Assembly: GCA_020137815.1 (NCBI GenBank)
Contig: CM035357.1
Span: 5,146,001 to 5,210,000 of the forward strand
Length of the DNA: 64,000 nucleotides
Source: Hormiphora californensis
Taxonomy: Eukaryota > Animalia > Ctenophora
Direction of reading: 5' to 3'
Of this stretch, positions 408 to 60,600 are shown piece after piece. The translations under genes and the position numbers were made by a program. How positions within the stretch are numbered: the first letter of the stretch is position 1; each line of letters opens with the position of its first letter. The notes beneath the pieces are model-generated. The model was not told the DNA's origin and did not search any database. It saw nothing but the letters and a program-made list of their open reading frames with translations.

Positions 408-6627
<6,220 letters not shown>

Positions 6628-12700: not shown

Positions 12701-13120
12701 ATCACCCGCCCCTAATTAAAATGATTCATGCCATGTATCCAACTAAACCATAGGCGGTAGATAGACGGAGATAGAGAGTTAGAGAGGTGAGAGTGAGAGA
12801 TTCGAATCATGGACGACTAATCAAGTATTGTATCACGTTTCATGATATCCTCTAATTAATTAAATGAAAGGGGGTTACCTATAATTTGACTTAACCAGTG
12901 CCAATACGTGATTACTGATTTTCTACCGTTATTCGCCAATAGTCTTTATATTATGTATTAAGCCAAAAACTAATTGAATTAGTTGGCGGGAAAGGTGGCC
13001 CACTTACACCTTTTGCTACTGCCGGGTATCACCATGAACTCTCATTTTCTCTCTCCAGCTCGGTATCTCAATCTCCTATTTTTCAAGGGTAACTTATTCC
13101 TGTTCGTTCTATCCCTCTCT

Positions 13121-13198
<78 letters not shown>

Positions 13199-13233
13199 TA
13201 TCCATCTCTCTATCTCTCTCTCTCTCTCTCTCT

Positions 13234-13316
<83 letters not shown>

Positions 13317-15227: not shown

Positions 15228-15402
15228 TCCTTCTCCACATTCCTCCCTTGTCTATCTTTCTATCTTTTTCTATCTTTTTTAATTAAAATCCCGCAAATAC
15301 AACATTTTGCTAGCTAGAGAGAGGGGGTGTTAGTGTAATTGGGTTAATGGTACAGACGCGGGGTACTACTCAGTGCGACACGCAGTGTACACAAGCAACT
15401 GT

Positions 15403-15483
<81 letters not shown>

Positions 15484-16231
15484 TAGAGAGAGTGGGGAGC
15501 CGGGAGAGACAGTTATGTTATAAAGTCGACAGTTTAAAAAACACCACACTGGAAAATGTGGGGAAATTAAACAAAAATTAATATATGGTAGGTTCAACAC
15601 GTACAAAACAGGGAAACATATCTTCCAACCCAAACTGAAAATTGGAACAAAACCCAAGAATATCTTGTTTAGTAAGGGGTCTTACTCGACAAAGAACATC
15701 AAGCTTCAAAACGAAAATTCTCTATCAGGCTCCGGTATAAAAACTTGGGAAAATTGGGGACCAAAATGTAATCGAAAAATACAAGCAAGTTCTAGAATAG
15801 GGATCTGTGTTTGATTTCTGAAGCATAGATGGAGAGAATGGGAGAGAAAGAGAGAGAGTGTGTGTGTGTGTGAGAGTCTAACCTAGTCTACTACCGGAGC
15901 TGGAGGGGACATATGATGGGGTACAAGAAGCAAATACAATGCTAGGAAACGCTTAGCACTTGCATTGTCTTGGTTTGCAGTACACAAAGTGTCTCTCTCA
16001 CACTCTCTCTTTCACTCTCTCTTTCACTCTCTCTTTCACTTCCTCCCTCTCTCCCTTTCAAACTTCACAGCATTAGACGTTATGTGGCAGCCTGCAGCGC
16101 ACGAAAATCTATTAGTAGCGGTACAATAGGTGCACTGGAGGTACAAGCAGAAAATGCAAATCAGATAATAATTAATAAATCGGCAAATCATAGATCTAGT
16201 AGAAGAAAGCTGAGAAGGGAGATGCCCGCTC

Positions 16232-23797: not shown

Positions 23798-26167
23798 GAT
23801 ACATTTGCAGTTTCATATTTGTTTCATTTTGAATGCTCTGTTACACTGACATACACCCGTCTAAGTCTCTCTTTAATCCTAAATCTATCAATTTACAACC
23901 GCATCGCCTAGTCTGGTTCAGTCATTCTGTCAAATAGTGCTCCTTTCCTGTATCTTTCAACACAGTACCTCTAATATCTGATCTCTAACGCACTCAATAC
24001 CTGCTCGTTTTCTTGTACTCAGGTCACGTCCATAATATTGCTCTGTCTCAAAACATACTCCTTGTGCCAATGCTCCTCTATATCCCTAATGATTCCCAAA
24101 ATTTCAAGTTTCTATCTTCAAAACTGTGGTCTCAGTAGCATTAAAACTGTCAAATACATCATTCTGCATTCTGGATACAGAATAACTTTGCGGATGTGTG
24201 ATATAAACGAATTGCCGGGATTCTCCAGACTCTCTCACAATCAGTTCATACATTTGCAGTTTCATATTTGTTTCATTTTGAATGCTCTGTTACACTGACA
24301 TACACCCGTCTAAGTCTCTCTTTAATCCTAAATCTATCAATTTACAACCGCATCGCCTAGTCTGGTTCAGTCATTCTGTCAAATAGTGCTCCTTTCCTGT
24401 ATCTTTCAACACAGTACCTCTAATATCTGATCTCTAACGCACTCAATACCTGCTCGTTTTCTTGTACTCAGGTCACGTCCATAATATTGCTCTGTCTCAA
24501 AACATACTCTTTGTGCCAATGCTCCTCTATATCCCCTAATGATTCCCAAAATTTCAAGTTTCTATCTTCAAAACTGTGGTCTCAGTAGCATTAAAACTGT
24601 CAAATACATCATTCTGCATTCTGGATACAGAATAACTTTGCGGATGTGTGACATAAACGAATTGCCGGGATTCTCCAGACTCTCTCACAATCAGTTCATA
24701 CATTTGCAGTTTCATATTTGTTTCATTTTGAATGCTCTGTTACACTGACATACACCCGTCTAAGTCTCTCTTTAATCCTAAATCTATCAATTTACAACCG
24801 CATCGCCTAGTCTGGTTCAGTCATTCTGTCAAATAGTGCTCCTTTCCTGTATCTTTCAACACAGTACCTCTAATATCTGATCTCTAACGCACTCAATACC
24901 TGCTCGTTTTCTTGTACTCAGGTCACGTCCATAATATTGCTCTGTCTCAAAACATACTCCTTGTGCCAATGCTCCTCTATATCCCCTAATGATTCCCAAA
25001 ATTTCAAGTTTCTATCTTCAAAACTGTGGTCTCAGTAGCATTAAAACTGTCAAATACATCATTCTGCATTCTGGATACAGAATAACTTTGCGGATGTGTG
25101 ACATAAACGAATTGCCGGGATTCTCCAGACTCTCTCACAATCAGTTCATACATTTGCAGTTTCATATTTGTTTCATTTTGAATGCTCTGTTACACTGACA
25201 TACACCCGTCTAAGTCTCTCTTTAATCCTAAATCTATCAATTTACAACCGCATCGCCTAGTCTGGTTCAGTCATTCTGTCAAATAGTGCTCCTTTCCTGT
25301 ATCTTTCAACACAGTACCTCTAATATCTGATCTCTAACGCACTCAATACCTGCTCGTTTTCTTGTACTAGCCACCACCCACCCCTCCACCCCACCCACCT
25401 CCCCCACCCTGGCCCTTGCCAATTTAGAGGACTTTGTGAAACACGCCAGTACAGGGACAATCCTTGTGTTTTGGTGCACTAAGTCGCTTATCGCGTGTAA
25501 CAACTCACAATTGTTCTTATCTGTCCCACCCGTCTTGTCCTATAGAACATCGTACACATTCTAGGGACGCTACAATCTGTCCCACCTCTTATTTGTATTT
25601 GATCATTTTTGTTCATCTTGATCTCTACTGGAAGTGGAAATGGTACACCTCTCATCTGATCACCAACAACATCACGGTACCAATCATACATCAAAAAGCT
25701 GTAAGTTCATTTGTCTGTATTGTCTGTTCATCTATTGTGTACCATTGATAATGATTCCGGAGTAAACCTTACCAATCAATAATTTAATTAGAGCTACTAT
25801 AGACAGACTACCCCAGACCCAAGCTTGAGAAGTGTCCACTCGACGGACCGTCGTCGTAACAAACAAACGAACAGGCCTACCTGCACAGCCACCCAAGCTT
25901 GAAAATGTGCCCCCTAACTTGTCTTTTTGCTTATTCGCAAGATAACTGCAATGTCCTCACGGGGCGGAGATGCGAAGAGTGCAACCGACCTTTAACCGTG
26001 GGGGCTGCGTAAGTGTCTTGCAAGTACAATGACTGACTGACAATATGAAAGCAATGATTTCAACTGACCACAACACGATGACAGACGCTATGACGAGGTT
26101 GCAATGTCGTTCTGCCCTAACGGGCAGAGTTTGGCACGCTATAACCTATCTGTACCACCACCACCAC
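23798..26167 (+). mobile_element. Non-coding retro-insertion A: 5' tandem array, conserved core, (CCA)n tail
   Basis: 14-bp TSD CACGTCATCGTAAT (23784-23797, 26168-26181); empty site at ~56562 in the duplicate. Confidence 0.82.
23800..25367. repeat. Tandem array, ~450-bp unit x3.5
   Basis: CATTTGCAGTTTCATATTTG recurs at 23802, 24251, 24701, 25151; units nearly identical. Confidence 0.95.
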
Positions 26168-26829: not shown

Positions 26830-26874
26830 GCGCGCGCCCGTGCGTTTTCGAATATCCCTCTGTAGGCTCTAGCC

Positions 26875-28278
26875 ATGCCAGATATGACAAATATGGCTAC
26901 ACCTACTGATGACAAAAGTGATGGCAATACCCTTGCCGTTGGAAATCTTGTAAACGCAGCAGATCCTCTCACCAAAAAGGTCCTGTCTGCCTACCGCCAT
27001 GATGTGGATTACACCAAGAATCTGGACATCATCCGCACATTCAATTGTGCCCACCTGGAAGCCGCTGCATCATTTTTCGGTGCATCCCCCGGCTCACATG
27101 CAGACAAAACTAAGCGGTACCAGAACCGCACTACACTAGCTGACTACATCATCATTCAGCTGGAAAGTCATTTTCCCTGTGATTGTGAGGGCTGCGGAGA
27201 AGGATATGCAGTTAAACTAGGTGAATCTCCTCGTGTCCGCTGTTTTCTTTGTCAGCAGGGGTCTCATGATTGCGAGGCTATGGATGGCACCCTTGGGTCC
27301 TTGACGGGGTCGGTCTGGTTATGTCTGCCGTGCAAGGACAAAAACAACAAAATTGAAACCTTCATGTGCAACCGAAGTGCTGAAGATCCAGAATCAGTGC
27401 TATCTGATGAGGAATACGAGTTCAAAATCAGTCCGAAGGCAGGCCGTAGTGGTAAGAAGAAGAGGAAGAAGAAACAAGCTCCTGTCAAGAAAGATCCTGA
27501 TGATCTGGTAACTCCTGTTGGTGGAGTGACAGTTCTAAAAGATGTGGATCTTGGAGACGTATCTTCTGATGGAGAGGTGCAACAGCAAGGTGTTCCCAAA
27601 TTCAGCAATGTTTGTGAACGTTATCTACTGAGAGACTGTCCTCATGGCCCAAATGGTGACAAGTTGATTAGTGGTAAGCCTTGCAGCAAGGAACATCCCC
27701 AGAAATGCCTCCGTTATTGTCAGTACGGAACGGCAACTCGTTCTGGGTGTAACTTTGGTGATAAGTGTCAGAATTTTCACCCACCTCTCTGCCATAATTC
27801 TGAGATCTCCCGAGTCTGTACCGACAAAGAATGTAAAGACACACATTTAAAGAACACTCGGAGAAGTGAAGTAGCCCCTGCTAAGGGTAATTCATTGAAG
27901 AGTACTGGTAACAAAACCAGTGATCTCTCTCAGAAAGTGGAGCAGAAAGAGCCCCGTCGTTCAGCTCCTCCAAACCCAAAGAAGAAGAAGAAGAAGATTA
28001 ACAAAACTGAGACCGATCCCCGTGCCGCGACCAATGACATCCGTTCACAAGAGGATTTTCTCATGGCATTGATGGCCTCAGTGAGGGACGAGATTCTTCG
28101 AGAAGTAAAGACGTCACTGAACTCATCTCTACAGTCCTTCAGGGAAGAGATGACGAGGGAACACACACCCCGGCCCAAACATCTGACACTCACACAACCA
28201 GGCCTGAACACCCCGACCAACTACCAAGGGGTTCTGGAACGGTTTCGGAATTACTCCTCATCAACGCCCGCAGTTTAA
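26875..28278 (+). CDS. LINE ORF1 with PHD-like finger and CCCH-type zinc fingers
   Basis: CEGC..CFLCQQGSHDC..WLCLPC (PHD-like); C-x7-C-xn-C-x3-H repeats; basic tracts. Confidence 0.85.
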   Translation: MPDMTNMATPTDDKSDGNTLAVGNLVNAADPLTKKVLSAYRHDVDYTKNLDIIRTFNCAHLEAAASFFGASPGSHADKTKRYQNRTTLADYIIIQLESHFPCDCEGCGEGYAVKLGESPRVRCFLCQQGSHDCEAMDGTLGSLTGSVWLCLPCKDKNNKIETFMCNRSAEDPESVLSDEEYEFKISPKAGRSGKKKRKKKQAPVKKDPDDLVTPVGGVTVLKDVDLGDVSSDGEVQQQGVPKFSNVCERYLLRDCPHGPNGDKLISGKPCSKEHPQKCLRYCQYGTATRSGCNFGDKCQNFHPPLCHNSEISRVCTDKECKDTHLKNTRRSEVAPAKGNSLKSTGNKTSDLSQKVEQKEPRRSAPPNPKKKKKKINKTETDPRAATNDIRSQEDFLMALMASVRDEILREVKTSLNSSLQSFREEMTREHTPRPKHLTLTQPGLNTPTNYQGVLERFRNYSSSTPAV

Positions 28279-31187
28279 CGCCTTCCGCGGCTAGTGACTG
28301 TCGGTGGAAGTTTTCTTTTATCAAGGACTCATTGGAGAATCCGTCAATACCCATCCTTTGCACCGGTATTACGGAGACCTGGTGGCATGATGATTTCTCT
28401 GATGCCCAATTGGAGATTGAAGGCTTTCACCTAACTCGTTGTGACAGAGCGGGTAGAAGAGGTGGCGGTTGTGCACTCTACATTAACAATCAACTGACCC
28501 CTTCCTCTGAGTTCAGATTCTCAGACACGTCCAATAGTGCGGCTGCTGTATACATCAAGGAGACCCACTCGGTTTTCTGTGTTGTGTACAGGGCGCCATC
28601 TTCCCCTGCGAATGACCTTTTTGATGATCTATCCCGTTTCATTGATCAGTGCGAACTCGACAAGGGTTGTCCTGACATCTATGTTATGGGCGACTTCAAT
28701 ATGCCAGACATAGACTGGGGAACACTCACTGGAGGACCTAACCCTTGCTCACAGATGCTACTAAAATTTGTGAACTCATATTTTCTCACTCAGCTTGTTG
28801 ACTCCCCAACACGGGGCTTGAATATTCTAGACCTCGTTCTCACCAACCGGCCAGACTATGTCTTCAAAACTGAGGTATCGGAGTCGTGTATTTCTGACCA
28901 TAATATGATCAGCTCTACACTTGGGTTTGGTATCTTACCCACTCGTCAATCAGACCATCGATTCACGGACTTTGATATTTACAACTTTCATGAGGCTAAC
29001 TTCCCTGAAATGTGTAGGGAGTTAGACCAGATCGACTGGCTAGCACTCGCCGACATCTGCGATGACGGTGATGGTTCTGATTTCGTTCAACTTTTCACCC
29101 TGACTGTTCTACAGGTCTTATCTCACCACTCTCGTAAGAAGAAGGCCCGTAAAAAAAGAAGGGACCCTGTTCTCAGGAAATTGAAAGTGAAACAGCGGAG
29201 TTTGAATAAACGGATTGCTCTTGCACGGCAGAATAAACCTCACCTTTTGCCACAGCTCGAGATTGGTGTTTCCAGAATTACTTGGGAAATTTTGTGCCAC
29301 ATTTCTCAGCGACTTGACAGTGATGAAAACGAGGCGCTGACAAAACTCAAAGCTAACCCAAAATTCTTCTGGTCATACGCCAACCGAAAGAGGAAGACCC
29401 GGTCACGTATACCTCCTTTACAGACAAGTGATGGTTCACTCACTGACGTTCCCGCTATGAAGGCAGAACTGTTTCAATCTCAATTCACATCTGTTTTCAG
29501 CACTCCTTCAAACTCTTCCTCAACAGCTGCAGACAACATCATTCCTTCTACATGCAGCCTTTCAGACATCGTTTTCTCCACCGCTGATATTGAAAAGGCA
29601 CTACATGACCTCAATCCCTATTCAGCCGGCCCTCCAGGAGATGTACCTGCCAGAATTTTACGTGACTGCCGATCATCGCTGTCCTACCCCCTATCCATCT
29701 TATGGGACAAATCGTTTGATTCTGGTATTGTACCACCCTGTCTGAAACTTCAGTACATTGCACCCCTCTACAAAAAGGGTCCTAAAATGAAAGCTGAAAA
29801 TTACCGCCCGATCTCCCTCACCAGTCACATTGCCAAGACATTTGAACGGGTTGTAAGATCTCAAATGGTGTCATACTTTGAATCAGAGAACTTGTTTAAC
29901 GAGTCTCAGCATGGGTTTAGAAGCAAGAGGAGCTGCTTATCCCAACTCACTCGTCACATTGACAATATTCTGAACAATCTCAACGACCTTCTTGAAGTGG
30001 ATGTAATCTACTTGGACTTCGAGAAGGCGTTTGATAAAGTTGACATCGGTATACTTCTCGAAAAGCTGCAGAGATATGGAGTTAAGGGCAAACTCCTTGA
30101 ATGGATCCGCAGCTTCCTACTAAACCGGAAACAAACGGTCTTAGTCGACGGCGTAGCGTCTTCTTTTGCAGAAGTCAGAAGTGGGGTCCCACAAGGGACT
30201 GTTCTCGGTCCACTTTTATTTCTGATCTATGTAATTGACCTGGAATCCGTAATCAAACACGGTTCTTCTTTGTCGTTCGCTGATGACACTAAAATCTTCT
30301 CTGCTATCCGTACTATGGTTGACAAATTGAACCTACAGGAGGATCTGAACAGTGTGATAACCTGGGCTGACGCTAACAATATGTCCTTGCACCAGTCAAA
30401 GTTCGAGGTCATGAATTTCACCCTGAATCACACCAGTTCGCTTAGAGAAGTACCGTTCAGTGCTGAGAACTATTCCTATCAACTCTCTGATGGGAGGTTC
30501 ATCGATCCAACAGACACTGTCCGAGACTTAGGTGTTCTACTCTCGAGTGATGGTCAATGGTCGGCCCAAATATCTCGAGTTGTTACCACGGCTAGTCGGG
30601 TTGCTGGATGGACATTAAGTGCATTTAGATCCAGAACTCGCCGCACCATGATGACTCTTTACAAGTCACTGGTGCGTCCCCATCTTGACTACTGTTGCAC
30701 ACTGTGGTCACCTTCCAAAAATGGGGATATTAGTCGTGTTGAGGATATTCAACGATCGTACACCCGTAAGATCGTTGGTCTCAAGGGGCTGAACTACTGG
30801 CAACGTCTTCAAACCCTGGGACTTTTGTCGCTTCAGCGCCGACGTGAGAGGTACACTATGATTCTTGTGTGGAAAGTGTACAACAATGAGATACCCAATA
30901 GTACTGACATGTGTTTCGTCGACAGGCACCGCTCTGGCCCTAGTGCTGTCGTCCCTCGATACTCGTACGAGGCTCAACGATCTAACCTGTCGCTATATGA
31001 ACAATCATTTGCGGTACTGGGGGCAAGGTTGTGGAACACTTTGCCTCGATCTGTAAAGGAGGCCCCAACTCTTTATCAGTTCAAATCTCAGCTAGGTAGT
31101 TTCCTCTCTACCATTCCGGATACACCCCCCATCAGCGGTTATCCTGCTCAAGCAAACAGTAACTCAATACTAGAGTGGTGTCCATGA
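28038..31187 (+). CDS. LINE ORF2, AP endonuclease plus reverse transcriptase (CR1/L2-group-like), intact; frame open from 28038
   Basis: INARSL, ITETW, GDFN, LDLVL, SDH (APE); NYRPISL, QHGF, DFEKAFD, GVPQGTVLGP, FADD, DLGV (RT). Confidence 0.93.
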   Translation, partial: HPFTRGFSHGIDGLSEGRDSSRSKDVTELISTVLQGRDDEGTHTPAQTSDTHTTRPEHPDQLPRGSGTVSELLLINARSLTPSAASDCRWKFSFIKDSLENPSIPILCTGITETWWHDDFSDAQLEIEGFHLTRCDRAGRRGGGCALYINNQLTPSSEFRFSDTSNSAAAVYIKETHSVFCVVYRAPSSPANDLFDDLSRFIDQCELDKGCPDIYVMGDFNMPDIDWGTLTGGPNPCSQMLLKFVNSYFLTQLVDSPTRGLNILDLVLTNRPDYVFKTEVSESCISDHNMISSTLGFGILPTRQSDHRFTDFDIYNFHEANFPEMCRELDQIDWLALADICDDGDGSDFVQLFTLTVLQVLSHHSRKKKARKKRRDPVLRKLKVKQRSLNKRIALARQNKPHLLPQLEIGVSRITWEILCHISQRLDSDENEALTKLKANPKFFWSYANRKRKTRSRIPPLQTSDGSLTDVPAMKAELFQSQFTSVFSTPSNSSSTAADNIIPSTCSLSDIVFSTADIEKALHDLNPYSAGPPGDVPARILRDCRSSLSYPLSILWDKSFDSGIVPPCLKLQYIAPLYKKGPKMKAENYRPISLTSHIAKTFERVVRSQMVSYFESENLFNESQHGFRSKRSCLSQLTRHIDNILNNLNDLLEVDVIYLDFEKAFDKVDIGILLEKLQRYGVKGKLLEWIRSFLLNRKQTVLVDGVASSFAEVRSGVPQGTVLGPLLFLIYVIDLESVIKHGSSLSFADDTKIFSAIRTMVDKLNLQEDLNSVITWADANNMSLHQSKFEVMNFTLNHTSSLREVPFSAENYSYQLSDGRFIDPTDTVRDLGVLLSSDGQWSAQISRVVTTASRVAGWTLSAFRSRTRRTMMTLYKSLVRPHLDYCCTLWSPSKNGDISRVEDIQRSYTRKIVGLKGLNYWQRLQTLGLLSLQRRRERYTMILVWKVYNNEIPNSTDMCFVDRHRSGPSAVVPRYSYEAQRSNLSLYEQSFAVLGARLWNTLPRSVKEAPTLYQFKSQLGSFLSTIPDTPPISGYPAQANSNSILEWCP

Positions 31188-31880: not shown

Positions 31881-32699
31881 GGGGGGGGGCCGGCTGAAGT
31901 TTTTGAAGTCAACTTCAAAAACTTCAAAGCGAAACTTAGGGTGGAAAACTTCAAAAACTTCAAAAACTTCAAAAACTCATATCTCCTAAACCGTTGGAGA
32001 TAGGCCCTATGTTGCTTCATAACTCTTATATAAACTTGCATATTCCGAACAAGATGCACCCCTTTAAAAAGCCTATAGTCACTCATAAACCATTAAAACT
32101 GGTCTAGCCCAAAAAAAGTCATGCGCACACACAAAATTATGAAAATATCCCATTATCCCTCGAATTAGATGAGGTGGAGACTTCATTTTGGCACGTACCC
32201 CCACTAACTCGAGGCCGCTGATGATTTTGGTGTCCATATTTTTTCACTACTCCCTTCATAAAAAATTTGCATTTTGTGAGACTGGCAAAAAGGGTGTGGC
32301 CCCAAAAAAATTTTTGAAAATTTACTTCATAACTTTTAAACACTTTCTTAGCATTTTCTAGGCAATTTTTTGAGTTATAGAATGAAAATAAAATCTGTTT
32401 TTACAAAAAATTTAAATCTTTTACACCAAATTGTGCCATGGATTTCATGGCTAGGAATCATTGTAAATATCCTAATTTGTGGTAGAAAAAGGGAAGACAA
32501 GGACGGATAACTTTGCCACAATATGTATTAAGCATGAAACTAACCTAAACAAGTGTAATAATAGTCACTGATAGCATATAAAAGTAGTTTAGAGTTTTTG
32601 AAGTTTTTGAAGTTTTTGAAGTCAACTTCAAAAACTTCAAAAACTCAAAAAGTAGGGTGGAAAACTTCAAACTTCAAAAACTTCAGCCGGCCCCCCCCC
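31881..32699. mobile_element. MULE-like non-autonomous element with G-run TIRs and 9-bp subterminal repeats
   Basis: G9-CCGGCTGAAGTTTTTGAAGT inverted ends; TSD (C)AATCGTAC; empty site ~57500. Confidence 0.85.
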
Positions 32700-32831: not shown

Positions 32832-35800
32832 TCACCAATCCATCTTATTCTCCTTATTCTCTTCTTTGACCGCTCCACTTTTACTGTGGCACTCCTCCGC
32901 AAACTTTCTAAACAGGTCTACGCTGGATTTTAGGGATGTTTTAGCGTAGTCAGGGACCTTATTGCCTGACTCCTCCCCTTCCTTCCAGTTCCCCATCTCT
33001 TCTACCAACTGTTCCAAAGTCTGAACACGGGGGAGGAATGTAAATATTGGTGATAAAAAGGATTCATATCCACAAAAAAGGGGGAAAGATCGGTAGAACT
33101 TCGACATTTAGGGCAGTTCATTTTAGGGCATGTTGTCCAATTAGCATGAAGCGGGCACACGGAAATACTGCACTTACCGGGACAGTAAAGGGATCAAAAG
33201 TGTCCACGTCCTTCGCTAGGAACGGGATACAGACCCGCCCAGTTTTGGGATGAACAGAGAAGGGAGATTTGAGAAGATGGTTGAGGCCCTTTGTCACATT
33301 GACATCCAACCGGGGATAACACAGCTGAAATAGAGGGGATATTGGGAAACTCGATCGTTGTATGTATGAGATTGTGCTGTACACTGTAATGCAGGAGTCT
33401 CCCGTTTCACTTGTCTCATATATAAGACCGTCCTCTTCGCACCGGGCCGGGGTACAGTCAGTGCCTGACAACGTTTCACGTACTGTACAGTGTACAGTAT
33501 GTGAAACTAGAGACTCCTGTTATAGTACAGAGCTTTTCTTGTTCAATCACTTTAAATTTTGATATGAAGTTTCTAGCTGATCACCTGCAGAACAACTTCT
33601 TTGATCGCATTATTTTTCTGCTTCCTCGCTTTAGCATATTCAGCCCAGGCACTTTTTAACAGGCTCCATTTCTTCTTGCTATCACCTGGACTTGCAGCCC
33701 AGTCTGCCATGTCATTTTGAATGGTCTTGGCCGGGAACATGTTTAGCACCTGCAGAGGGGGAGTTTAGAGTTGGAATAATAGTAAATGCTGAACCCGGCC
33801 GACCCGATTTGAGTGCAAAACAGGGTCTAACGCCGCTGGACAGTGGACACTAGGGTGTGCTAAGTGAAAATTTTGTCGACTTGGCCAATAGTTTAAGGGT
33901 AGATATGAAACTATGGACAATTGTCTACTACATCCTGAAATCGGAATTGGGGTAGTGTATGTCAATTACGTGGGCCAGGCGATTAAAAAAGTTTAATTTT
34001 TTACCGAAAAAAGGAAAATATTTGTGTTTTACACCAGTGTTTGGCATGTTCTTGATATCAAATTTTTATGGTCAGGGTCGTGTTCAGCGGTTTGATACCG
34101 ATCAGAATGGATGTGTATCATGAAAGTTAGCCAAAGTTCATTTTTTACCTGAACATGTTCATTTTGGACCAAAAATGTTCATTTTTGACTAAAGATGGTC
34201 ATTTTGGTCATTTTCTTCAATTTTGAGAGCTTTTTCATGAACGGGATCGTGTTCAGCAGGTCAAAATTAGTCGGTTACAACCAGAATTTGCTTTCCGACA
34301 AATAAAATCTCAAAAAGTTAAAATTCGTCTCCACTAATACTGCAAAGTAGGAAAATGTGCAAGAAAAAAAGATGAAAAAAAAATGTTTTCATTATAAAAT
34401 GGAGTTCTGAAGGTACATACTGGAAATAATGGTTGTACTGGTTCTCATGAGGCGATTCATATGTGTGGTTTTTTCGAAATAACGCCCCAAAAAACATTTT
34501 TTGATATGAATATGCCCATATATGGGCATACATCGGCCCACGTAATTGGGCCAGGGTAGGACTAAAATTTTTTTACCAAATGTTTTAGAATGATCGTAGG
34601 AACTCATTCTAGGGGTAAACTTTGTGAAAATTGGATTTGATTTATGAGTTGGGAAAAATAGCACACCCTAGTGGACACTGATAATAGAGCACAGTGGTCT
34701 TTTGGTGGTCACTAAGAATTTTACGAAAAATTGTTTTTGAACCTATCTGGTAGCTTTTCGAGCGTAGAATCCAATGCACCCCTCACTCATGCCTTGAATT
34801 TTTGAGGAAAGTGGTGTTTTTCCAAAAAGAAGGGTAATTGAAAAATTTTCGAAAAATTTTTTATGAGCTTATCTGGTAGCTTTTTTTTGTTTTGTACAAA
34901 CTCTTTTATTTTATTTTATAAAAAAAGTCTAACCTGGCAAGCTTTTTTGACGTAGAATCAAATATACCCCTCACTCATGCCTTGATTTTTTGAGGAAAGT
35001 GGTGTTTTTTCAGTTTTTAGTCTTTTTAGGCTTCTTTGACAACCATACTTAAAATTTAGCTGGAGCAGGTGAAATGGGGATCCATAACAATTTAAATGTG
35101 GTTGATAGTAAGAAATCGAACAAATTTATATCTCATTCAAAAATTTTTTTTCAAACTTCATCCAGGGCGTTTTTATGGTCAAATAACGAAGAAAACTTGA
35201 TTTTTCGACCATAATATACAATAGTACGCGCTTGAAACCTTTTTTATCTGAAAGGCCAGACAATTTCCTATCTTTTGGTCTATAGGACATCGATGAGGTT
35301 CGATGAGGAGGCTGGGGAGAAAGCGTTAAAGAAGGCATGTATGGTTACTTTAAAAAAAAACGATCATTTAAAAGTTTGAGACCTAACTAAACACGTTTCC
35401 CGACCTTATTTTACACGTAGAATCGATTGCCGATAGAATTAGAACTCTAATATTGAAGGAAAACGGTGAAAACGCGTTTTTTCGTCTTATACATACACGC
35501 CTTCTTTAACGCGTTCTCCCCAGCCTCCTCATCGAACCTCATCGATGCCCCATAGACCAAAAGATAGGAAATTGTCTGGCCTTTCAGATAAAAAAGGTTT
35601 CAAGTGAGTACTATTGTATATTATGGTCGAAAAATCAAGTTTTCTTCGTTTTTTGACCATAAAAACGCCCTGGATGAAGTTTGAAGAAAAATTTTTGACT
35701 GAGATATAAATTTGTTCTATTTCTTACTATCAACCACATTTAAATTTTTGTGGGTCCCAATTTTAAGTATGGTTGTCAAAAAAAATTTTTTCCTTAATGA

Positions 35801-37114
35801 CCACCTACTCCCATGAAAAAGGCCACTGTGTAGAGGTTGATATAGTCTAAAGTCTTCCAAGACCTGAAATTCACAGAAAACAATTTGACGATATACCTGA
35901 TTCCTCTTCTCAGGGGTGGACAAGAAATCCTGGTTACGAATCATCAGCTCGTCAAAATACCCCGCTGTAATCTCTACGGCTCTCTCAATAGCAGGGTGGA
36001 GGGCTCCAGGGAGGAGAACCTTCTTCGACTGGTTATCTCCCCCAACCACCACAGACATGTAGTCAGCTATTGCTCCCCTTCCTGACAACAATTGGGGGAA
36101 GATATAGGTAACGATATAAAACAAGGGAGTGAGTGATGGGAATTGTGTAGCTCACACGCTCTGTGAGGGTTCGGGAGGAAGAATACCAAACATTGGCTCA
36201 GTATCCAACTTGTCTGCTTACCAGAGTTGTTTAGCTTCCTGGCCGTTTCATCAGCAATCCAACAATGAATACCCCTCCTTCCCGAGTAGACCCATAGGAT
36301 TTGGGAAAACCCGAAATCTGTCCTCAGCGCCTCATCTAGGACTTTAACTGCAATCTTCATAAAGACCCAACAGCTTGGACAAATATTGGCCTCCTGGCAA
36401 CACGACCTGCAGTGGGTGATTATTAGGGACCAACTTGCAAAAAGCACCAGGGTATATAGCAGTATGTGTAATGTGATTGTAGGAGTGAAGCTAAACGGGA
36501 AAATTAGGAAACATTGGGGCTGATGAAAGAGAGGTCTTTGTTACACCCACCTCACATCATCGTAATCTGTCATGTCAATATCAAACACAACCTCTCTCTC
36601 CATCGCTGTGAATGCCCCACTTTTAAATGCCTTGTGGTCCTTAGGTTTGGCATTGTAAACCGCACCAACGTCAATCTTAAACGGGTTCACTGCACGAAGC
36701 TCCTTCTTGAATTCGTCCTGGTTCGAAAAGGACTTGTACCTGGAGGAGGGGGTTTAGGAGGTGATAACCAAAGGTGATAACCAAATCTTGGTTGATTTCC
36801 AGGAATGTTATGTAGGGGAGAGAAGGACAATGAGGGGGTAGATTTTGTCTAGCTCAACCCACTTTCCGTACGCTCCTCTTTACAAATGTAAAGGAGGGTT
36901 AGAAAAGGGTAGAGTAAGGACCCCTTACTCAACAAATAACGAGGGGTAGATTAAGATCTCACCGTAGGTATATATCCCCGTTTAGGGTGAAAGAGAACTC
37001 CCGTTTAGCAAGGTAGTCTGGTGAGCCATAGGATAACCATTTGATATAGGGGCTATACGGGAACAACTTGGAGTAGTAGATCTTCAGATGTTCCTCTATG
37101 TCGGCAACCGGCAT
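32832..37114 (-). CDS. PRIM1: DNA primase small (catalytic) subunit, ~7 exons
   Basis: KREFSFTL..DIYLRY, FDIDMTDYDDVR, VYSGRRGIHCW, YPRLDVNVTKGLNHLLKSPFSVHPKTGRVCIP. Confidence 0.96.
33851..34670. mobile_element. hAT-type non-autonomous element in a PRIM1 intron
   Basis: TAGGGTGTGCTA...TAGCACACCCTA; 8-bp TSD GTGGACAC. Confidence 0.88.
34690..35830. mobile_element. Transib/RAG-like non-autonomous element
   Basis: Ends CACAGTGG...CCACTGTG; 5-bp TSD TAGAG (34685-34689, 35831-35835); single TAGAG at the empty site ~58685; internal ~300-bp inverted repeat. Confidence 0.85.
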
Positions 37115-37920
37115 GGTATCTGATATTTGAGATATTTGGGTAGAATCGTGGTGTTTATAATTGGGGTAGAGATGTTTCGGGATCAGCTGATTTAGCGAGT
37201 TGGTAGTTGAAAAAAGTAAACACTGTGATCTAAGAGATCGATCTAAAAATAATCTTACTCAGAGAGGTACACAAAACTAAGAGAGCAAAGCTAATACAAC
37301 GATATATTACCATGAGAAATCCTCTTCAATACATATTCGATTTTCATGTGAAATTTCATTTTTGGACAATATTTCGTTCATACATCTCTTCCCAAAAAAA
37401 CAAACTATGCCTGCACATGTGTCTACAACCTCTCTCTCTCTCTCCAGTACCCTAAGATCTCTCTTCATCTACGTATTTTACAACTAACTACAACGTACTA
37501 GAAACTGTGGTGAATATGATGAGACATGTGTGGGGACTAGATCTAGATGTGTGAACTAGATGTGTGAGGTTTTATCTTGCCTTGTTTTGAACAAAACGAC
37601 TTTTATCATGGAGAGATGGGAGCAGTAATATATATAATAGAAAGCATAGATCATGGAGACTCAAAACCTGTCAGGACAATGCTGTGACAGTTCAAAACTA
37701 GTATTGTTTTGGCGAGAGAAACTCCACACAAATACACACACACACACACACAGACAAACAAAACCGATCTCTCTCTCTTCTCCAAAGCAGGAGTTGTTAT
37801 GTTCAATGCCCCTCCTTTAGGGGCCGAACAAGGCAAAACAGGTGATGGGCTGTAAAAGTAGCATTTAATCCTAGGGCCAGCCGCGGACCGTGATGATGAA
37901 AAAGGCTCCAGTGAGTTGGT

Positions 37921-45637: not shown

Positions 45638-48469
45638 TGGCACTCTGATCGTTTCTCGTTTCCTGTGCTTCTAGTTCAGTACAAACACCACATTTTGTCA
45701 CCGTTTCTTCCTTTAACATTCAAAAAATCACCCCACAGCCCTCCTCTACTCCCCAGTGGTCTCTACACAGCTTAGATAATGCCCAATGTGGTCCTGATAA
45801 GCTTAGAAATGGCTCATTTTCACTGAAAAAGATTCCCGAAAATTTCGAAACAAAGTCATTTTTGAAGTTTGCGATGCATTTATTTCCATTTTATTAAAAG
45901 TCCACTTTAAGTTGCTTGCGGAGGCCCGTACACATGGTTACCACTTCGTGACATACTTCCCGGAAGTCTCATTGCACTCTGATCGTTTCTCGTTTCATGT
46001 TGCTCTCGTTTCCTCAGTAACAAACACCACATTTTGTCACATGTTCTTCCTTTAACATTCAAAAATCACCCACAGCCCTCCTCCTACTCCCCAGTGGTCT
46101 CTACACAGCTTAGATAATGCCCAATGTGTCCCTGATAAGCTTAGAAATGGCTCATTTCACTGAAAAGAGTTCCCGAAAATTTCGAAAAAAAAAAAGCATT
46201 TTTTGAAGTTGCGATGCATTTTATTTCATTTTATTAAAAAGTCCACTTTTAAAGTTGCTTGCGGAGGCCCGTACACATGGTTACCACTTCGTGACATACT
46301 TCCCGGAAGTCTCATTGCACTCTGATCGTTTCTCGTTTCTGTTGCTCTCGTTTTCTCTCAGTACAAACACCACATTTTGTCACCTGTTTCTTCCTTTAAC
46401 ATTCAAAAATCACCCACAGCCCTCCTCTACTCCCAGTGGTCTCTACACAGCTTGATAATGCCCAATGTGTCCCTGATAAGCTTAGAAATGGCTCATTTTC
46501 ACTGAAAAAGATTCCCGAGAAATTTCGAAAAAAGTCATTTTTGAAGTTTGCGATGCTTTTATTCCATTTTTTTATTTAAAAGTCCATTTTAAAGTTGCTT
46601 GCGGAGGCCCGTACACATGGTTACCACTTCGTGACATACTTCCCGGAAGTCTCATTGCACTCTGATCGTTTTTCGTTTCCTGTTGCTCTCGTTTCTCTCA
46701 GTACAAACACCACATTTTGTCACCTGTTCTTCCTTTAACATTCAAAAATCACCACAGCCCTCCTTACTCCCAGTGGTCTCTACACAGTTAGATAATGCCC
46801 AATGTGTCCCTGATAAGCTTAGAAATGGTCATTTCACTGAAAAAGATTCCCGAAAATTTCGAAAAAAGTCATTTTTGAAGTTTGCGATGCATTTTTATTT
46901 CCATTTATTTAAAAGTCCACTTTAAAGTTGCTGCGGAGGCCCCCGTACACATGGTTACCACTTCGTGACATACTTCCCGGAAGGTTCTCATTGCACTCTG
47001 ATCGTTTCTCGTTTCCTGGTGCTCTCGTTCTCTCAGTACAAACACCACATTTTGTCACTGTTCTTCCTTTAACATTCAAAAACTCACCCACAGCCCTCCT
47101 CCTACTCCCCAGTGGTCTCTACACAGCTTAGATAATGCCCAATGTGCCCTGATAAGCTTAGAAATGGCTCATTTCACTGAAAAAGATTCCGAAAAATTTC
47201 GAAAAAGTCATTTTTTGAAGTTTGCGATGCATTTTATTTCCATTTTATTTAAAGTCCACTTTTAAAGTTGCTTGCGGAGGCCCGTACACATGGTTACCCT
47301 TCGTGACATACTTCCCGGAAGTCTCATTGCACTCTGATCGTTTCTCGTTTCCTGTTGCTCTCGTTCTCTCAGTACAAACACCACATTTTGTCACCTGTTT
47401 CTTCCTTTAACATTCAAAAATCACCCACAGCCCTCCTCCATCCCCAGTGGTCTCTACACAGCTTAGATAATGCCCAATGGTGTCCCTGATAAGCTTAGAA
47501 ATGGCCCATTTTCTACTGAAAAGGTAACCGAAAAATCCCACCCGCCCCCCCCCAGCCACCCCCTAAAATAGAGGCGTTTACTAAACAGCCCACTACAGCG
47601 ACAATCCTGTGTTTTGGTGCACTAAGGTCGCTTATCGCTGTAACAATTATCAATGATCCTATCTATGTTATCCGATTGTCTCTAGAACATATCACACTCT
47701 ACATTGTACTGTCCTATGCCTTATTTGTGTTTGATGTCTTTTAATCTTAATCTCTACTGAAAATGGACACACTTCACATCTCATCACCAATTACGTCACG
47801 GTACCCATCAATCCATCAAGGTCGTAAGTTTGTCAGTCCGTTGTTATGTACAGTTGTATCCAAATTATGATCGTAGCCATTGAGAGATTTCTATTCTTAT
47901 TCAGTTAGATCTTTAGCTAGCGCTGTTGACAGACCGTACTCACAATGGAAAACGTTACCTTGATCCAGACCAAGTCCAAGACTTGCTACCTTGTTCCAAA
48001 ATCATTCAAGACTACCACAAAGGCAAAACGTTACCTTGTTCCAGACAACAAAACTCAAGACACTCAAGGCAAATCGTTACCTCTGTTCCAGGACTAAACT
48101 AAACTCAAGACACTCTAAGGCAAAACGTTACCCGTGTCCAGACCTAAAACTAAAATCAAGACATCTCAAGGCAACAACAATGTACCAGCTCCAGCTAATA
48201 TAAACCTTAGGAATTTGATTTAGGCCAGGAGTAGTGTGATACCCCTGTCGACGTCGTGGCGGCTCACGCCGCTCGGGCGTCGACAGTGGTTGACCACGGT
48301 CTTCCTGGAGGTCTGAAGTAAACATGCTTCGCATAAAACTGATTGGTGGGTGGCCTTGCACGGCGGAGGGGTGGACGTGCTGGGGCGCCTAATAAGCGTG
48401 CTCGGTGCGGCCGCCGCTACTTTCGGGCAGGTCACTCGCCAGACGCAGCAAGTACAAACAAACAAACAA
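45638..48469 (+). mobile_element. Non-coding retro-insertion B: ~340-bp tandem array x5.6, conserved core, short repeats, GC-rich 3' region, (CAAA)n tail
   Basis: 12-bp TSD ACATACATATTT (45626-45637, 48470-48481); absent at ~16615; unit starts at 45640, 45974, 46317, 46657, 46993, 47329. Confidence 0.82.
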
Positions 48470-49476
48470 ACATACATATTTGTCGCAGGGTGCGCAAAAC
48501 ACAGTCTAGCTAGGCAACATATTTGACTCGTGATGCTTCTGGTCCCAAAATCTCCTTTGGGACCTGAATTCGATCCAGATTTTTACCGCTGTATTGATTT
48601 ACCTTGTGCAGAGTTTTTTAGTGTACCCTGAAACCACTCCACACATGTTGGTTAGGAATCGTTCCTTGCTGCTCCGACCTCAGTGTTCAAAACTTCCCGA
48701 TCACTTCCATCAGTCCCGTCCGGCGGGGAGCAGTCCAACTTGCTGGTACCCGTTTTGAATAACCTTTCGTACTGTTGTTGGGAGACCTGCATACGGGGGG
48801 GGAAAGGAGTCTTATTCAGGAAAATTGAGAAAACAAAGTTAATTCCGTTCAAAATTGACTGAAAAATGATCTATCACTGTTCCGAAGTGATCTCAAATAG
48901 AAAAAACGCTAGAGCTGCTAGAAAAATGTGTTGATTTCCACGCTATGTAACATCTATTTGTGGGGCAAAGAGGAAATGTGCGATTTCGACGATGAAATTA
49001 ACTTTATGTCTTGCCGTTCATATATCTGATTCAATCAATTGCTCCTTATCATCTCTCCAGCTGTTAATGTCCGAAACGGGTGGGGGACGCGCGCTAGAGC
49101 TCACAGGAAAATGTCAAGGTTTTAGTTGATCACCATTTTTCTCGTGTGAGATAAAAGATGAGTGTAACACACAGGCTCGTTCCCAACTTTAATGTACAGT
49201 CACGGAGAATTATTCACGTTCCCTCACGTTTATAATGTTTTTGTTGTTCCAAACCATTATGTGCAACACAAACTGACAGGAATCTAAGTTAGCACTTTGC
49301 CATGTTACGCCAGTTTGTCGTTCGCTGATAGCTTCACACATCGGGCGGAAGAGTCCGACACATGGGAATCATTGTCAATTGCACTATTGCTTTTAAAGAT
49401 CTAATTTCACTACATCCTCTATGTTTCTTATCTACTACTTAATAACAGCCACACAAGAGGGACCCATATTTCAACA

Positions 49477-50634
49477 TTGATTTTTGTTGTTTTATTCTCT
49501 GTCTCTCACAGCACAAACAGCCGCAGGGATCACTCGCATACGGGATGCCCTCAGCAGTCCCCCAAAAGCTCTTCGTCCCTTTACCGGAGTATTCATAAAG
49601 TACCATGCGACAACACCTACCCCAGAAAGTCTGATCTTCCGGGAAAAACCTGAAGGAAGATAGTGGGAGGGAAAACAAAGTGTAATACGTGGACCACTCG
49701 GATGCGTGAACATATTTGGACATGGACAGGGAGAGGCGCACAAAGTATCTTGGATCTTCAACATGACCACGGCGAGGATCTCACAGTGGTGCAGGAACAA
49801 GTGAGGAGCCTGTCAGCTTGGTGGGCGTTTCCTAGCGGGAAGAAGATGGGGAAGGAAGGCAAGTGGAACTGGAGTTAAATGATTCAGGACGCTTGTGAAT
49901 CCTGTTATACTTCCGGAGCCGTCGGAGGTCACTGGAGATTAAAGATGCCATCAGGGACTGGAAAAAGGAAGGACGTTTGCGGAGAAGAGATTGGATGTGT
50001 CTACAGAGGGATGGTTTGTGGAGGGTTGGTCTGAGCATGTGGACTACATCCGCAAAGAGAGGGTCGACTAGCGCCGAGAGGGACCAGAAAGTACAGGCCC
50101 ATTCGTTGGGCAGTGCGGAAGCAAGTACACGAGAATGCACCAATGGCCTATTGCATCCAAAATCAACTGGTATACCGGATATACGGGCTCAGAGCGAAAG
50201 GAAGGGCGATTTAACGCCCTATCCCAAGGCTCTGTGGTTGTTGCGTTTTCATGGTGACGTGACTGACTACTTGCGCTTCTACCAAAGGGGAGATAGCTGA
50301 CAAAACATTAACACATGGGGGACAGCACTGCCAAACCCGCGTACACGCTGTGTCGGCTATCACCCGGACCCCATGATAATCAAAAACAGCTGGGGATCCG
50401 ACATGGGGTATGTCTGGGATACTTTGAAAACGCGAGAGGAACGGATGGACTCGTGTGAGTATTTCAGGTGGGGGTCATGGCTAACTGGAAGAGCATACGG
50501 GGTTGTGAATAGGACCACTGATTACCCAAACCTACTGATGGATGGATTGGGTGTGGGATGAACACGATGGATGTCCCTGTGGCCACTGTGAGGGTGGCGT
50601 GGAAACTGCAGGCGATGTCCCACATGTGCCGTAA
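49477..50634 (+). other. Second copy of the nested C1A protease, heavily frameshifted (probably raw-read error)
   Basis: Colinear with 17549-18685; fragment [10 protein letters not shown]. Confidence 0.75.
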
Positions 50635-57666: not shown

Positions 57667-60600
57667 TCACCAATCCATCTTATTCTCCTTATTCTCTTCT
57701 TTGACCGCTCCACTTTTACTGTGACACTCCTCAGCAAACTTCCTAAACAGGTCCACGCTGGATTTTAGGGAGGTTTTAGCGTAGTCAGGGACCTTATTGC
57801 CTGACTCCTCCCCTTCCTTCCAGTTCCCCATCTCTTCTACCAACTGTTCCAGAGTCTGAACACGGGGGGAGGAATGTGAATATTGGTGATAAAAAGGATT
57901 CATCTCCACAAAACAAGGGGGAAAGGTCGGTAGAACTTCGACATTTAGGGCAGTTCATTTTAGGGCATGTTGTCCAACTAGCATGAAGCGGGCACACGGA
58001 AATACTGCACTTACCGGGACAGTAAAGGGATCGAAAGTGTCCACGTCCTTAGCCAGGAACGGGATACAGACCCGCCCAGTTTTGGGATGAACCGAGAAGG
58101 GAGATTTAAGAAGATGATTGAGGCCCTTTGTCACATTGACATCCAACCGGGGATAACACAGCTGAAATAGAGGGATATTCGAGGCAAAGTTTGCCTTGCT
58201 CGACTCTCTTTCCGTAAAGGAGGGTTCGAACAAGGTTCGAACAAGGTTCGAACAAGGAAAGCTCGATCGTTGTATATGAGAATATCGTTGCTGTACAGTT
58301 CGTAAAACAAGGGAGTGAAACGAGAGACTCCTGTACAGAGCTTTTCTTGTTCGAATTTTAATATGAAGTTCATAGCTAAATACCTGCAGAACAACTTCTT
58401 TGATCGCATTGTTTTTCTGCTTCCTCGCTTTAGCATATTCAGCCCAAGCACTTTTTAACAGGCTCCATTTCTTCTTGCTATCACCTGGACTTGCAGCCCA
58501 GTCTGCCATGTCATTTTGAATGGTCTTGGCCGGGAACATGTTTAGCACCTGCAGAGTTGAGCGTTTAGAGTTGGAATAAAAGTAAATACTGAACCCGGCC
58601 GACCCGATCTGAGCGCAAAAAAGGGTCTGGCGGGGGGGGAGGGGGGATCTAGCGCCCCTTGACACTGATAACACTGGATACTATTAGAGCTTGATATACT
58701 CTACCAAGACCTGAAATTCACAGAAAACAATTTGACGATTATATGTACCTGATTCCTCTTCTCAGGTGTAGACAAGAAATCCTGGTTACGAATCATCAGC
58801 TCATCAAAATATCCTGCTGTAATCTCCACAGCTCTCTCAATAGCAGGGTGGAGGGCTCCAGGGAGGAGAACCTTCTTCGATTGGTTATCTCCCCCAACCA
58901 CTACAGACATGTAGTCAGCTATTGCTCCCCTTCCTGACAACAATTGGGAGAAGATATAGGGAACGATATAAAAGAACTAAAACAAGGAAGTGAGTGATGG
59001 GGCGTATCGGTAGAGAAAGAATTGTGTAGCTCATACTGAACGCTCTGTGAGGGTTCGGAACGAAGAATACCAAAAATTGGCATTTGGCCAAGTATCCAAC
59101 TTGTCTGCTTACCCGAGTTGTTTAGCTTCCTGGCCGTTTCATCAGCAATCCAACAGTGAATACCCCTCCTTCCCGAGTAGACCCAAAGGATTTGGGAAAA
59201 CCCGAAATCTGTCCTCAGCGCCTCATCTAGGACTTTAACTGCAATCTTCATAAAGACCCAACAGCTTGGACAAATATTGGCCTCCTGGCAACACGACCTG
59301 CAGTGGGTTATTATTATTATTAGGGACCAACTTGCAAAAAGCATCAGGGTATATAGCAGTATGTGTAATGTGATTGTAGGAATGAAGCTAAACAGGAATT
59401 AGGAAACATTGGGGCTGATGAAAGAGAGGTCTTTGTTACACCAGGAACCGACCGAATCAGGAAATACTGGTCCCTGATTGGCTGATAACCAGTGACGATA
59501 ACAGGTTCTGAGGGGGGGGTGACACGTAACACTTTGTAACACTTTGTAACATGTGCAGAAAACTTTTTGTGCACGTTACATGTTACAAAGTGTTACATAG
59601 TGTTACATAGTGTTACATAGTGTTACAAAGTGTTACATAGTGTTACAAAGTGTTACATAGTGTTACAAAGTGTTACATAGTGTTACATAGTGTTACATAG
59701 TGTTACAAAGTGTTACATAGTGTTACATAGTGTTACAAAGTGTTACATAGTGTTACAAAGTGTCACAAAGTGTTACATAGTGTCACAAAGTGTTACAAAT
59801 TGTTACAAAGTGTTACAAATTGTTACAAAATATTTACAAACACACAAGGATTTGTAGCGAAGCAAATTTTCAATCTTTGACCAAAAAATTGATTTTGGAA
59901 AAATTTCATTTCTTTTTCCAACAGAAACGTTGTATATCATCTTATTAAGTACAAAGAATCGATTACCAATGAAAAAAAGTCGATTGGGTCACAACTCACA
60001 GGTGACTCAGCACATTGGGGGCCTCTGAGAGGCACAATACTTTTAATATCACTCTAAAAACTTTACCGTTGTCTAAAGTTCATATTTTTCTTTACCAAAT
60101 GGACTATTTCAGCCCTGATTTCCACAGTCGATGACATCGGAGGCTCAAAATATCCGCAAATTAGTAAAAAAGTGTATGTTTTAATAGTAGAGTCGATAAC
60201 TACATCGACCTCTCCCAATTGTTCCAGTTTTTGTCACATCTGTTTGGAGCCTCGACACGACCTCTAAACAGGTGTTACTTTTTCACAAACTGTTTTCATC
60301 TTGGTGTAATCAGCAGTTGAAATGTTGCTAATCATAACAAAAACCTGACTAAATTTTTTCAACTTGGGGTAAAACCATGGGTGTCAAAAGTTAGCTCTAG
60401 GTCCCCTGAGTAACCATCCGGAGACTCTAAGAGATATTTCAAGCCGTTCTCCCGTAATCATTAATCCCGGTGGAGAAAAAAAATACAATGCGGACGTACG
60501 TGAGCGCTGGCAGGCTGTTTACATGTTATTGTATGTCTCTCACTCTCTCTGGAAAAACCGCACGTGCGGTTGCGCCGCGCGAGATAACTCTTTCTCAAGG

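What the first reader, a model, noticed from the sequence alone, without database searches (positions are those of the whole stretch)
34690..35830. RSS-like transposon ends with a one-helical-turn asymmetry (7 vs 18 bp spacer)
Seen: both ends begin with CACAGTG and the TSD is 5 bp. Left end: CACAGTG-GTCTTTT-GGTGGTCACTAAG. Right end (reverse complement): CACAGTG-GCCTTTTTCATGGGAGTA-GGTGGTCATTAAG. The shared second motif lies 7 and 18 bp from the heptamer, an 11-bp difference. Knowledge: CACAGTG is the V(D)J RSS heptamer, Transib/ProtoRAG make 5-bp TSDs, and 12/23 spacers also differ by 11. The second motif is not the ACAAAAACC nonamer. Inference: a recently active Transib/RAG-like family (empty site present) with asymmetric ends in an early-branching animal.
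Basis: partly seen in the sequence, partly recalled or inferred. Interest (0 to 1): 0.72.

Follow-up and report, generated by a model that had tools for sequence, protein, structure and literature searches.

The report
Comb-jelly Transib transposon with unequal ends
This is one copy of an abundant, gene-less jumping element in a comb jelly, whose two ends differ by 11 bases as antibody-gene recombination signals do; it likely belongs to a Transib subgroup already published with such unequal ends, so it is a neat new example rather than a new system.

Summary
A 1141-bp non-coding element (34690-35830) has CACAGTG ends, a 5-bp TAGAG duplication and precise empty sites. Its ends align as heptamer + 7 shared bases + an 11-base insert on one side only + a shared 13-bp block. 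The 11-base difference is not private: both end types lie at high depth, with no listed variant in the tips, in 4 of 4 sequencing runs from two organisms. Those short contigs cannot link the two ends of one copy. The host is a ctenophore, and the element sits in an inferred intron of a primase gene. The idea is already in print: Tao et al. 2022 report asymmetric bipartite ends for all Subgroup I Transibs, ctenophores included. By my count three published ctenophore elements are offset by 10 bases, and one has a second block matching this one at 17 of 20 positions. New here: an offset of exactly 11, and an abundant young non-autonomous family. The transposase was not found, and no call tests whether the offset is required. 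An 8-base insert on the other end nearly cancels the offset further in. Verdict: new member of a known kind.

The parts
34685..34689 (+). Left target-site duplication TAGAG
   Evidence: single copy at empty sites
34690..35830 (-). Whole non-autonomous element, 1141 bp; minus orientation is inferred from published relatives, in which the long end is the 5' end
   Evidence: no ORF of 150 aa, no Pfam hit in the frames tested; orientation by analogy
34690..34696 (+). Heptamer CACAGTG of the short end
   Evidence: contigs of runs X3 and X9 start matching at 34690
34697..34703 (+). 7-bp stretch shared by both ends (6 of 7 identical)
34704..34716 (+). Second block of the short end, tip positions 15-27
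34717..34724 (+). About 8 bp present only on the short end; nearly cancels the 11-bp offset for everything further in
   Evidence: alignment; loose ends at 35779-35781
34739..35012 (+). Subterminal repeats (CCTATCTGGTAGC-type block; 70-bp unit twice, 34755-34824 and 34944-35012, 90%)
35032..35358 (+). Left arm of the internal inverted repeat
   Evidence: 287 nt core, 93%
35477..35783 (-). Right arm of the internal inverted repeat; in this copy it abuts the long end, whereas other copies carry the subterminal block there
   Evidence: depth dip at 35765-35779 and loose ends
35793..35805 (-). Second block of the long end, tip positions 26-38
35806..35816 (-). 11-bp insert unique to the long end (TCATGGGAGTA)
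   Evidence: no variant listed in 4 runs
35817..35830 (-). Shared 7 bp and heptamer CACAGTG of the long end
35831..35835 (+). Right target-site duplication TAGAG
33750..35896 (-). Inferred host intron (GT...AG, frame continues NQ|VLNMFP) of a DNA primase small subunit gene that holds the element
   Evidence: PF01896 on both sides; junctions read; no RNA evidence
58685..58689 (+). Empty site (single TAGAG) in the duplicated segment

Best explanation
This is a gene-less cut-and-paste transposon copy with RSS-type heptamer ends, a 5-bp target duplication and a family-wide 11-base length difference between its ends, likely moved in trans by a ctenophore Subgroup I Transib transposase. Shown: boundaries, TSD, empty sites, no coding capacity, high abundance of both end types in two organisms, ctenophore host. 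Inferred mechanism: a RAG1-like transposase dimer without RAG2 would cut at the CAC tips, with the core reading the heptamer and the next ~7 shared bases, and a distal NBD-like arm reading the 13-bp block. Because the block lies one helical turn further out on the long end, it would face the same side of the DNA on both ends, favouring a short-long pair as in the 12/23 complex. In RSS terms, the 9 bases after a 12-bp spacer on the short end and after a 23-bp spacer on the long end fall on the same block (7 of 9 identical). The complex then inserts with a 5-bp stagger. Confidence 0.85 for the identity; about 0.55 that the one-turn offset is functionally selected; about 0.3 that it is obligatory.
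For: TSD, tips and empty sites. Depth at the short end 8,650-15,335 and at the long end 2,250-18,472 in 4 of 4 runs, against 0-534 on the right flank (summed contig depth, not a copy number). No substitution row in 34690-34727 (18 rows, all shown, 3% threshold) and no indel row there among 12 shown of 14; no substitution, indel or joint row in 35704-35830 (complete tables, 2% threshold). Host: cathepsin P0001 is 91% identical to a Pleurobrachia bachei protein and 57-58% to Bolinopsis and Mnemiopsis clusters. Tao 2022: all Subgroup I Transibs have asymmetric TIRs. Their supplement prints five ctenophore elements, all with CACAGTGG ends; 3 of 3 with both ends annotated show a 10-base offset with different inserts (my hand count). 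The second block plus A-tract of PbaTransib_8175 matches the long end at 17 of 20 (hand count); that of MleTransib_2823 ends in CATTAAG. Offsets of 9 (AanRAGL), 10 (PflRAGL-A) and 11 (RSS, some insect Transibs) recur in unrelated families.
Against: No transposase with these ends was found: none in 127 window frames against Pfam (10, 117), no genome held, and 0 relatives in three collection scans. Contigs are about 60 nt and cannot link two ends, so 7/7 or 18/18 copies are not excluded; an end with another spacer might be clipped rather than listed, and 181 + 31 loose ends were not shown. In X5 the short end is 3-4 times deeper than the long end. Invariance across copies is also what descent from one founder gives. 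An 8-bp insert on the short end brings the next shared block (G + A tract) to tip position 36 versus 39, a 3-base offset. The block is not a nonamer (4 of 9). The target TAGAG is not GC-rich.
Confidence: 0.85

Rival explanations
1. Same Transib family, but the 11-base offset is a frozen accident. The enzyme needs only the first ~14-17 bp (and perhaps the second block at any distance); the founder's indel was simply copied into all descendants.
For: MITE families descend from one founder (established knowledge). [quoted passage not shown] Subgroup II Transibs have both symmetric and asymmetric ends. The compensating 8-bp insert restores near symmetry. The tips show 0 listed differences between organisms A and B against about 5 in 159 interior bases, which is too few to prove constraint.
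Against: Three divergent ctenophore families have a 10-base offset with different inserted letters, and this one has 11; none of the four is symmetric or half a turn off. ProtoRAG prefers its asymmetric pair and is sensitive to spacer length (PMC8289069 passages).
Confidence: 0.35
2. The distal contact is not the 13-bp block but the third block (G + A tract + subterminal repeat) at tip positions 36 and 39. The element then works like ProtoRAG (27/31 spacers), not like a one-turn 12/23 pair.
For: Third block offset by 3 bases (loose ends before 35779-35781 in X1, X3 and X9). ProtoRAG TR1-TR5 spacers are 27/31.
Against: The A/T tracts vary in length among copies, and minor X9 contigs lack 8 bases in this stretch (records 25, 26). 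In the published ctenophore elements the conserved part is the second block, and what follows it differs.
Confidence: 0.1
3. The element is mobilised by a two-gene RAGL transposon (RAG1L + RAG2L), which would be the first in a ctenophore.
For: Heptamer + conserved 7 bp + ~10-bp asymmetric spacer + second block is also the layout of PflRAGL-A and AanRAGL; the 5-bp TSD fits both groups.
Against: Positions 8-14 are T-rich, whereas RAGL TR2 is A-rich. The ctenophore entries I saw in Tao 2022 are all Transibs, and their ends are the closest match.
Confidence: 0.05
4. The element belongs to another superfamily (CMC/Chapaev, P-like) or is an inner Kolobok-like element, bounded by the 13-bp block, nested in a tiny remnant.
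For: Two unrelated metagenome loci (L010, L016) carry GGGGTGGTCACTAAG at what look like the tips of other small repeats.
Against: No duplication flanks the inner block. The empty sites lack the whole unit from heptamer to heptamer. A 5-bp TSD with CAC ends is the Transib hallmark.
Confidence: 0.05

Closest known systems
Subgroup I Transibs of ctenophores: MleTransib_2823, MleTransib_3931, PbaTransib_0868, PbaTransib_8175 (Tao et al. 2022, PMC9435367)
   Same: Host phylum; CACAGTGG tips; shared first 5-7 spacer bases; one short and one long end; a non-nonamer second block, 17 of 20 like PbaTransib_8175 and ending CAYTAAG like MleTransib_2823; 5-bp TSD.
   Different: Offset 11 rather than 10 (hand count). 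No transposase gene. The exact block and insert were not found in the supplement text (its sequences are printed in blocks of ten, which can hide a match).
Transib5, Transib2_AG, TransibN1-N3_AG (Kapitonov and Jurka 2005, PMC1131882)
   Same: Non-autonomous families with RSS12-like and RSS23-like ends; 5-bp TSD.
   Different: Those have an A-rich nonamer-like block; here the block is GGTGGTCAYTAAG.
PflRAGL-A (PMC10462144) and AanRAGL (PMC9435367)
   Same: Heptamer, conserved proximal stretch, 9-10 base asymmetric spacer, second block, 5-bp TSD.
   Different: They encode RAG1L and RAG2L; PflRAGL-A has an A-rich TR2 and an AT-rich nonamer-like block.
V(D)J 12/23 recombination signals
   Same: Identical consensus heptamer; 11-base difference; the 12/23 register lands on the shared block at both ends (7 of 9 identical).
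   Different: No nonamer (4 of 9); a mobile element, not a host recombination signal; no coupled-cleavage rule shown.

Membership tests
Transib superfamily (non-autonomous) | 5-bp target-site duplication | tested here: met
   TAGAG twice at the filled site, once at two empty sites
Transib superfamily (non-autonomous) | Inverted ends starting with CAC, RSS-like heptamer | tested here: met
   CACAGTG on both ends, 13 of first 14 bases identical
Transib superfamily (non-autonomous) | Multi-copy family with sharp boundaries | tested here: met
   High depth and differing flanks at 34690 and 35830 in laid runs
Transib superfamily (non-autonomous) | A-rich nonamer-like block with AA at tip positions 34-35 (consensus of 21 mostly insect families) | tested here: not met
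   Long end has TT there; best nonamer match 4 of 9 in the 12/23 register. The published ctenophore Transibs lack it too, so it does not define the whole superfamily.
Transib superfamily (non-autonomous) | GC-rich target | tested here: inconclusive
   One site only, TAGAG, 2 of 5 G+C
Transib superfamily (non-autonomous) | RAG1-core-like DDE transposase in an autonomous partner | not testable with these tools
   No genome; no transposase in the window; no relatives in three scans
Subgroup I Transib (Tao 2022) | Asymmetric bipartite TIRs | tested here: met
   7/18 layout, beyond chance, in 4 of 4 runs
Subgroup I Transib (Tao 2022) | End sequence akin to published ctenophore members | tested here: met
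   17 of 20 to PbaTransib_8175; offsets 10 versus 11 (hand comparison)
Subgroup I Transib (Tao 2022) | Transposase phylogeny, alpha11-alpha12 region, CTT1 | not testable with these tools
   No protein of this family was obtained
RAGL transposon | RAG1L and RAG2L genes between the TIRs | tested here: not met
   This copy is non-coding; the autonomous partner is unknown
RAGL transposon | A-rich TR2 at positions 8-10 | tested here: not met
   GTC / GCC followed by TTTT against the consensus
12/23 RSS system | Heptamer and 11-base spacer difference | tested here: met
12/23 RSS system | Nonamer ACAAAAACC | tested here: not met
   4 of 9 on both ends in the 12/23 register
12/23 RSS system | Obligatory short-long pairing for cleavage | not testable with these tools
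   Needs biochemistry

The most novel reading that the evidence does not exclude
A recently active, RAG2-less Transib in a ctenophore obeys a true 12/23-type rule on a GC-rich block that is not the nonamer. One-turn asymmetric synapsis would then be an ancestral property of the RAG1-like core and its distal arm, older than RAG2 and the nonamer, and this family would be the one with the exact 11-base geometry in which to show it.
Probability: 0.3. Interest if true: 0.72.

Novelty: new member of a known kind. Interest (0 to 1): 0.4.

Why it matters
The origin of the 12/23 rule is debated: inherited from a RAGL-A transposon or from a Transib. Asymmetric ends are already known in Subgroup I Transibs, but I found no test of the rule on one of them (listings of searches; two key structural papers were not held). 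An abundant young family implies a recently working transposase and, in a genome assembly, many natural end pairs. Counting 7/18 against 7/7 and 18/18 copies, and assaying the enzyme, would test whether the rule predates RAG2 and the nonamer. Published autonomous ctenophore elements already allow much the same assay, which limits the gain.

Tried and rejected
No whole genome is held, so copies could not be counted or paired. Pattern scans: viral contigs 0; genome contigs 0 with a family-specific pattern; metagenome contigs 16 loci, of which 0 of 16 are homologous to the element and 0 of 16 have an inverted second block; 3 of 16 have a GTG plus matching 5-mer downstream, but those partner ends are unlike; all treated as chance. 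Rfam on 33000-37500: 0. Pfam: no transposase in 10 long frames or 117 frames of about 80 aa or more (127 were selected, 9 of them had been scanned, and 1 was a copy within a tandem repeat; low-complexity frames were dropped first). Folding only shows the known internal hairpin and gives no shuffle control. A nested Kolobok-like element and a private indel were considered and rejected (see rivals). PMC6872938 and PMC6494689 are not held. Repbase cannot be searched here, so the family may already be catalogued there. Figure 1g and the TIR alignments of Tao 2022 are pictures that I could not see; they may already show this end type.

Full report
Observation. The element runs from 34690 to 35830 and is flanked by TAGAG on both sides. 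Its ends are CACAGTG-7-GGTGGTCACTAAG and CACAGTG-18-GGTGGTCATTAAG; the pattern occurs twice in the window and never in 100 shuffles. Aligned, the ends share the heptamer and the next 7 bases (6 of 7); then the right end alone has 11 bases, then both have the 13-bp block, 12 of 13 identical. No other of 30 offsets gives more than 6 of 13. Six of 5000 shuffles and 2 of about 5000 random window pairs reach the block's score.

It is an insertion. The window holds two diverged copies of a 25-30 kb segment. The second copy has one TAGAG at 58685-58689, beside an unrelated small indel. A contig of run X5 joins the left flank directly to a single TAGAG and the right flank, with neither this element nor the neighbouring hAT-like element. 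Its flank resembles the filled locus more than the window's other copy does, which suggests, but does not show, an insertion polymorphism. The element has no ORF of 150 aa, only short frames, no Pfam hit in the frames tested and no Rfam hit. Inside are subterminal repeats and a 287-nt inverted repeat. It lies in an inferred intron (33750-35896) of a primase small-subunit gene.

Host. The cathepsin at 17519-18685 is 91% identical to a Pleurobrachia bachei protein and 57-58% to clusters with Bolinopsis and Mnemiopsis proteins. The host is a ctenophore.

Is 7/18 private? No genome is held, so I laid 4 of the 22 runs on each end: three labelled organism A, one organism B. Summed contig depth was 13,713, 8,650, 10,463 and 15,335 at 34696-34711, and 7,832, 11,620, 3,750 and 18,472 at 35810-35824, against 0-534 on the right flank. 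The tool warns that this is no copy number. No substitution is listed in 34690-34727 (18 rows, all shown) and no indel among 12 rows shown of 14. Nothing is listed in 35704-35830, with complete tables. Interior sites do differ between the organisms. The window's copy differs from the majority of the organism A runs at 5 listed sites in about 730 laid bases, which fits a young family. So both end types are abundant and stable, and the private-indel refutation fails. Limits: contigs of about 60 nt do not link two ends; an end with another spacer could be clipped; 181 and 31 loose ends were not shown; X5 has 3-4 times more short ends than long ends; and founder descent also gives invariance.

A complication. 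Other copies continue inward from the long end into the same subterminal block that follows the short end (loose ends at 35779-35781 in X1, X3, X9). The short end has about 8 extra bases after the 13-bp block. So only the 13-bp block is offset by 11; the next shared block starts at tip position 36 versus 39.

What is known. Tao et al. 2022 (PMC9435367; whole main text; supplement searches; parts 9, 10 and 24 of 24; figures not visible) found 6 Transibs in ctenophores and state that all Subgroup I Transibs have asymmetric TIRs. From the printed sequences I count, by hand, a 10-base offset in 3 of 3 ctenophore elements with both ends annotated: MleTransib_2823 (7/17), MleTransib_3931 and PbaTransib_0868 (6/16); the short end is the 3' end each time. 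The block plus A-tract of PbaTransib_8175 matches the long end here at 17 of 20. In that supplement 7 of 7 'GRP' hits lie in non-ctenophore entries (line breaks could hide one), which would fit ends without a nonamer. Kapitonov and Jurka 2005 (PMC1131882; passages) define Transib by 5-bp TSDs and report RSS12/RSS23-like end pairs in five insect families, three of them non-autonomous. PflRAGL-A has a 10-base asymmetry (PMC10462144; passages and section 14). ProtoRAG has 27/31 spacers and prefers the asymmetric pair (PMC8289069; passages). PMC7204232 (passages) argues that invertebrate RAGLs rely on the terminal 15-17 bp. PMC8355894 (passages) proposes a functional role for Transib asymmetry. 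Four searches (listings only) showed no biochemical test on a Subgroup I Transib and no description of this family; two structural papers were not held and Repbase could not be searched.

How it likely works. By analogy with RAG and ProtoRAG (inference): a single-gene Transib transposase acts in trans. Its core binds the heptamer and the 7 shared bases and cuts at the CAC; a distal NBD-like arm binds the 13-bp block. One extra helical turn keeps that block on the same face. Nine bases after a 12-bp spacer on the short end and after a 23-bp spacer on the long end fall on the same block, 7 of 9 identical, with only 4 of 9 matching the nonamer. That register follows from the 11-base offset and is not independent evidence. 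The best argument for function is recurrence: offsets of 10, 10, 10 and 11 in four ctenophore families with different inserts. The best argument against is founder descent and the compensating 8 bases.

What failed. No relative or autonomous partner turned up in viral, metagenome or prokaryote collections. Earlier notes of this scan held nothing on this sequence or genome; 21 notes on other genomes match the words, and the 8 shown mostly file similar ends as ordinary Transib-type copies.

Verdict. Real, family-wide and well placed: a new non-autonomous family likely of the ctenophore Subgroup I Transibs, with an offset of 11 instead of the 10 I count in published members. Interest 0.4; 0.72 if an obligatory one-turn rule is shown (probability about 0.3).

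Noticed in passing
window 33851-34670: 820-bp hAT-like MITE (TAGGG...CCCTA ends, 8-bp TSD GTGGACAC at 33843-33850 and 34671-34678), 6 bp from the element's TSD in the same intron; very high depth in organism A runs, absent from X9. My notebook gives slightly wrong coordinates; these are the checked ones.
   Followed up: partly
window about 7800-38100 and 39400-62900: Two diverged tandem copies (mostly 82-93%) of a segment with an SH3 gene, a cathepsin and a primase small-subunit gene; most transposon insertions differ between the copies. Segmental duplication or two haplotypes.
   Followed up: partly
window 17519-18685 (+): Intronless papain-family cathepsin with I29 propeptide and a short Cys-rich tail; 18 homologues at E<=1e-60, the named ones all ctenophore. 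The counterpart near 49400-50800 has only short frames.
   Followed up: partly
window 26866-31187 (+): Apparently intact LINE: 470-aa ORF1 and 1049-aa endonuclease-RT ORF2, absent from the other copy.
   Followed up: no
window 3976-6114: Element with ~710-bp inverted arms that contain CT/AG microsatellites, around a GIY-YIG frame (4637-5416, minus); Penelope-like by recall.
   Followed up: no
window 31881-32699: 819-bp insertion with G-run/CCGGCTGAAG inverted ends, 9-bp subterminal repeats and an ~8-9 bp duplication (CAATCGTAC); possibly MULE-like.
   Followed up: no
window 12449-15046, 59443-61448: Further insertions with long inverted ends and microsatellite-like arrays; the first holds a nested ~1-kb element at 13387-14400.
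   Followed up: no
window 23799-25368 and 45640-47522: Tandem arrays with 450-bp (99%) and 340-bp (91%) units.
   Followed up: no
L010 minus strand near 358-100; L016 minus strand near 547: Two contigs of one assembly carry GGGGTGGTCACTAAG...CAAAA.CTGCCCA at the tip of small repeats, Kolobok-like by recall; the same core as this element's second block, probably by coincidence.
   Followed up: partly
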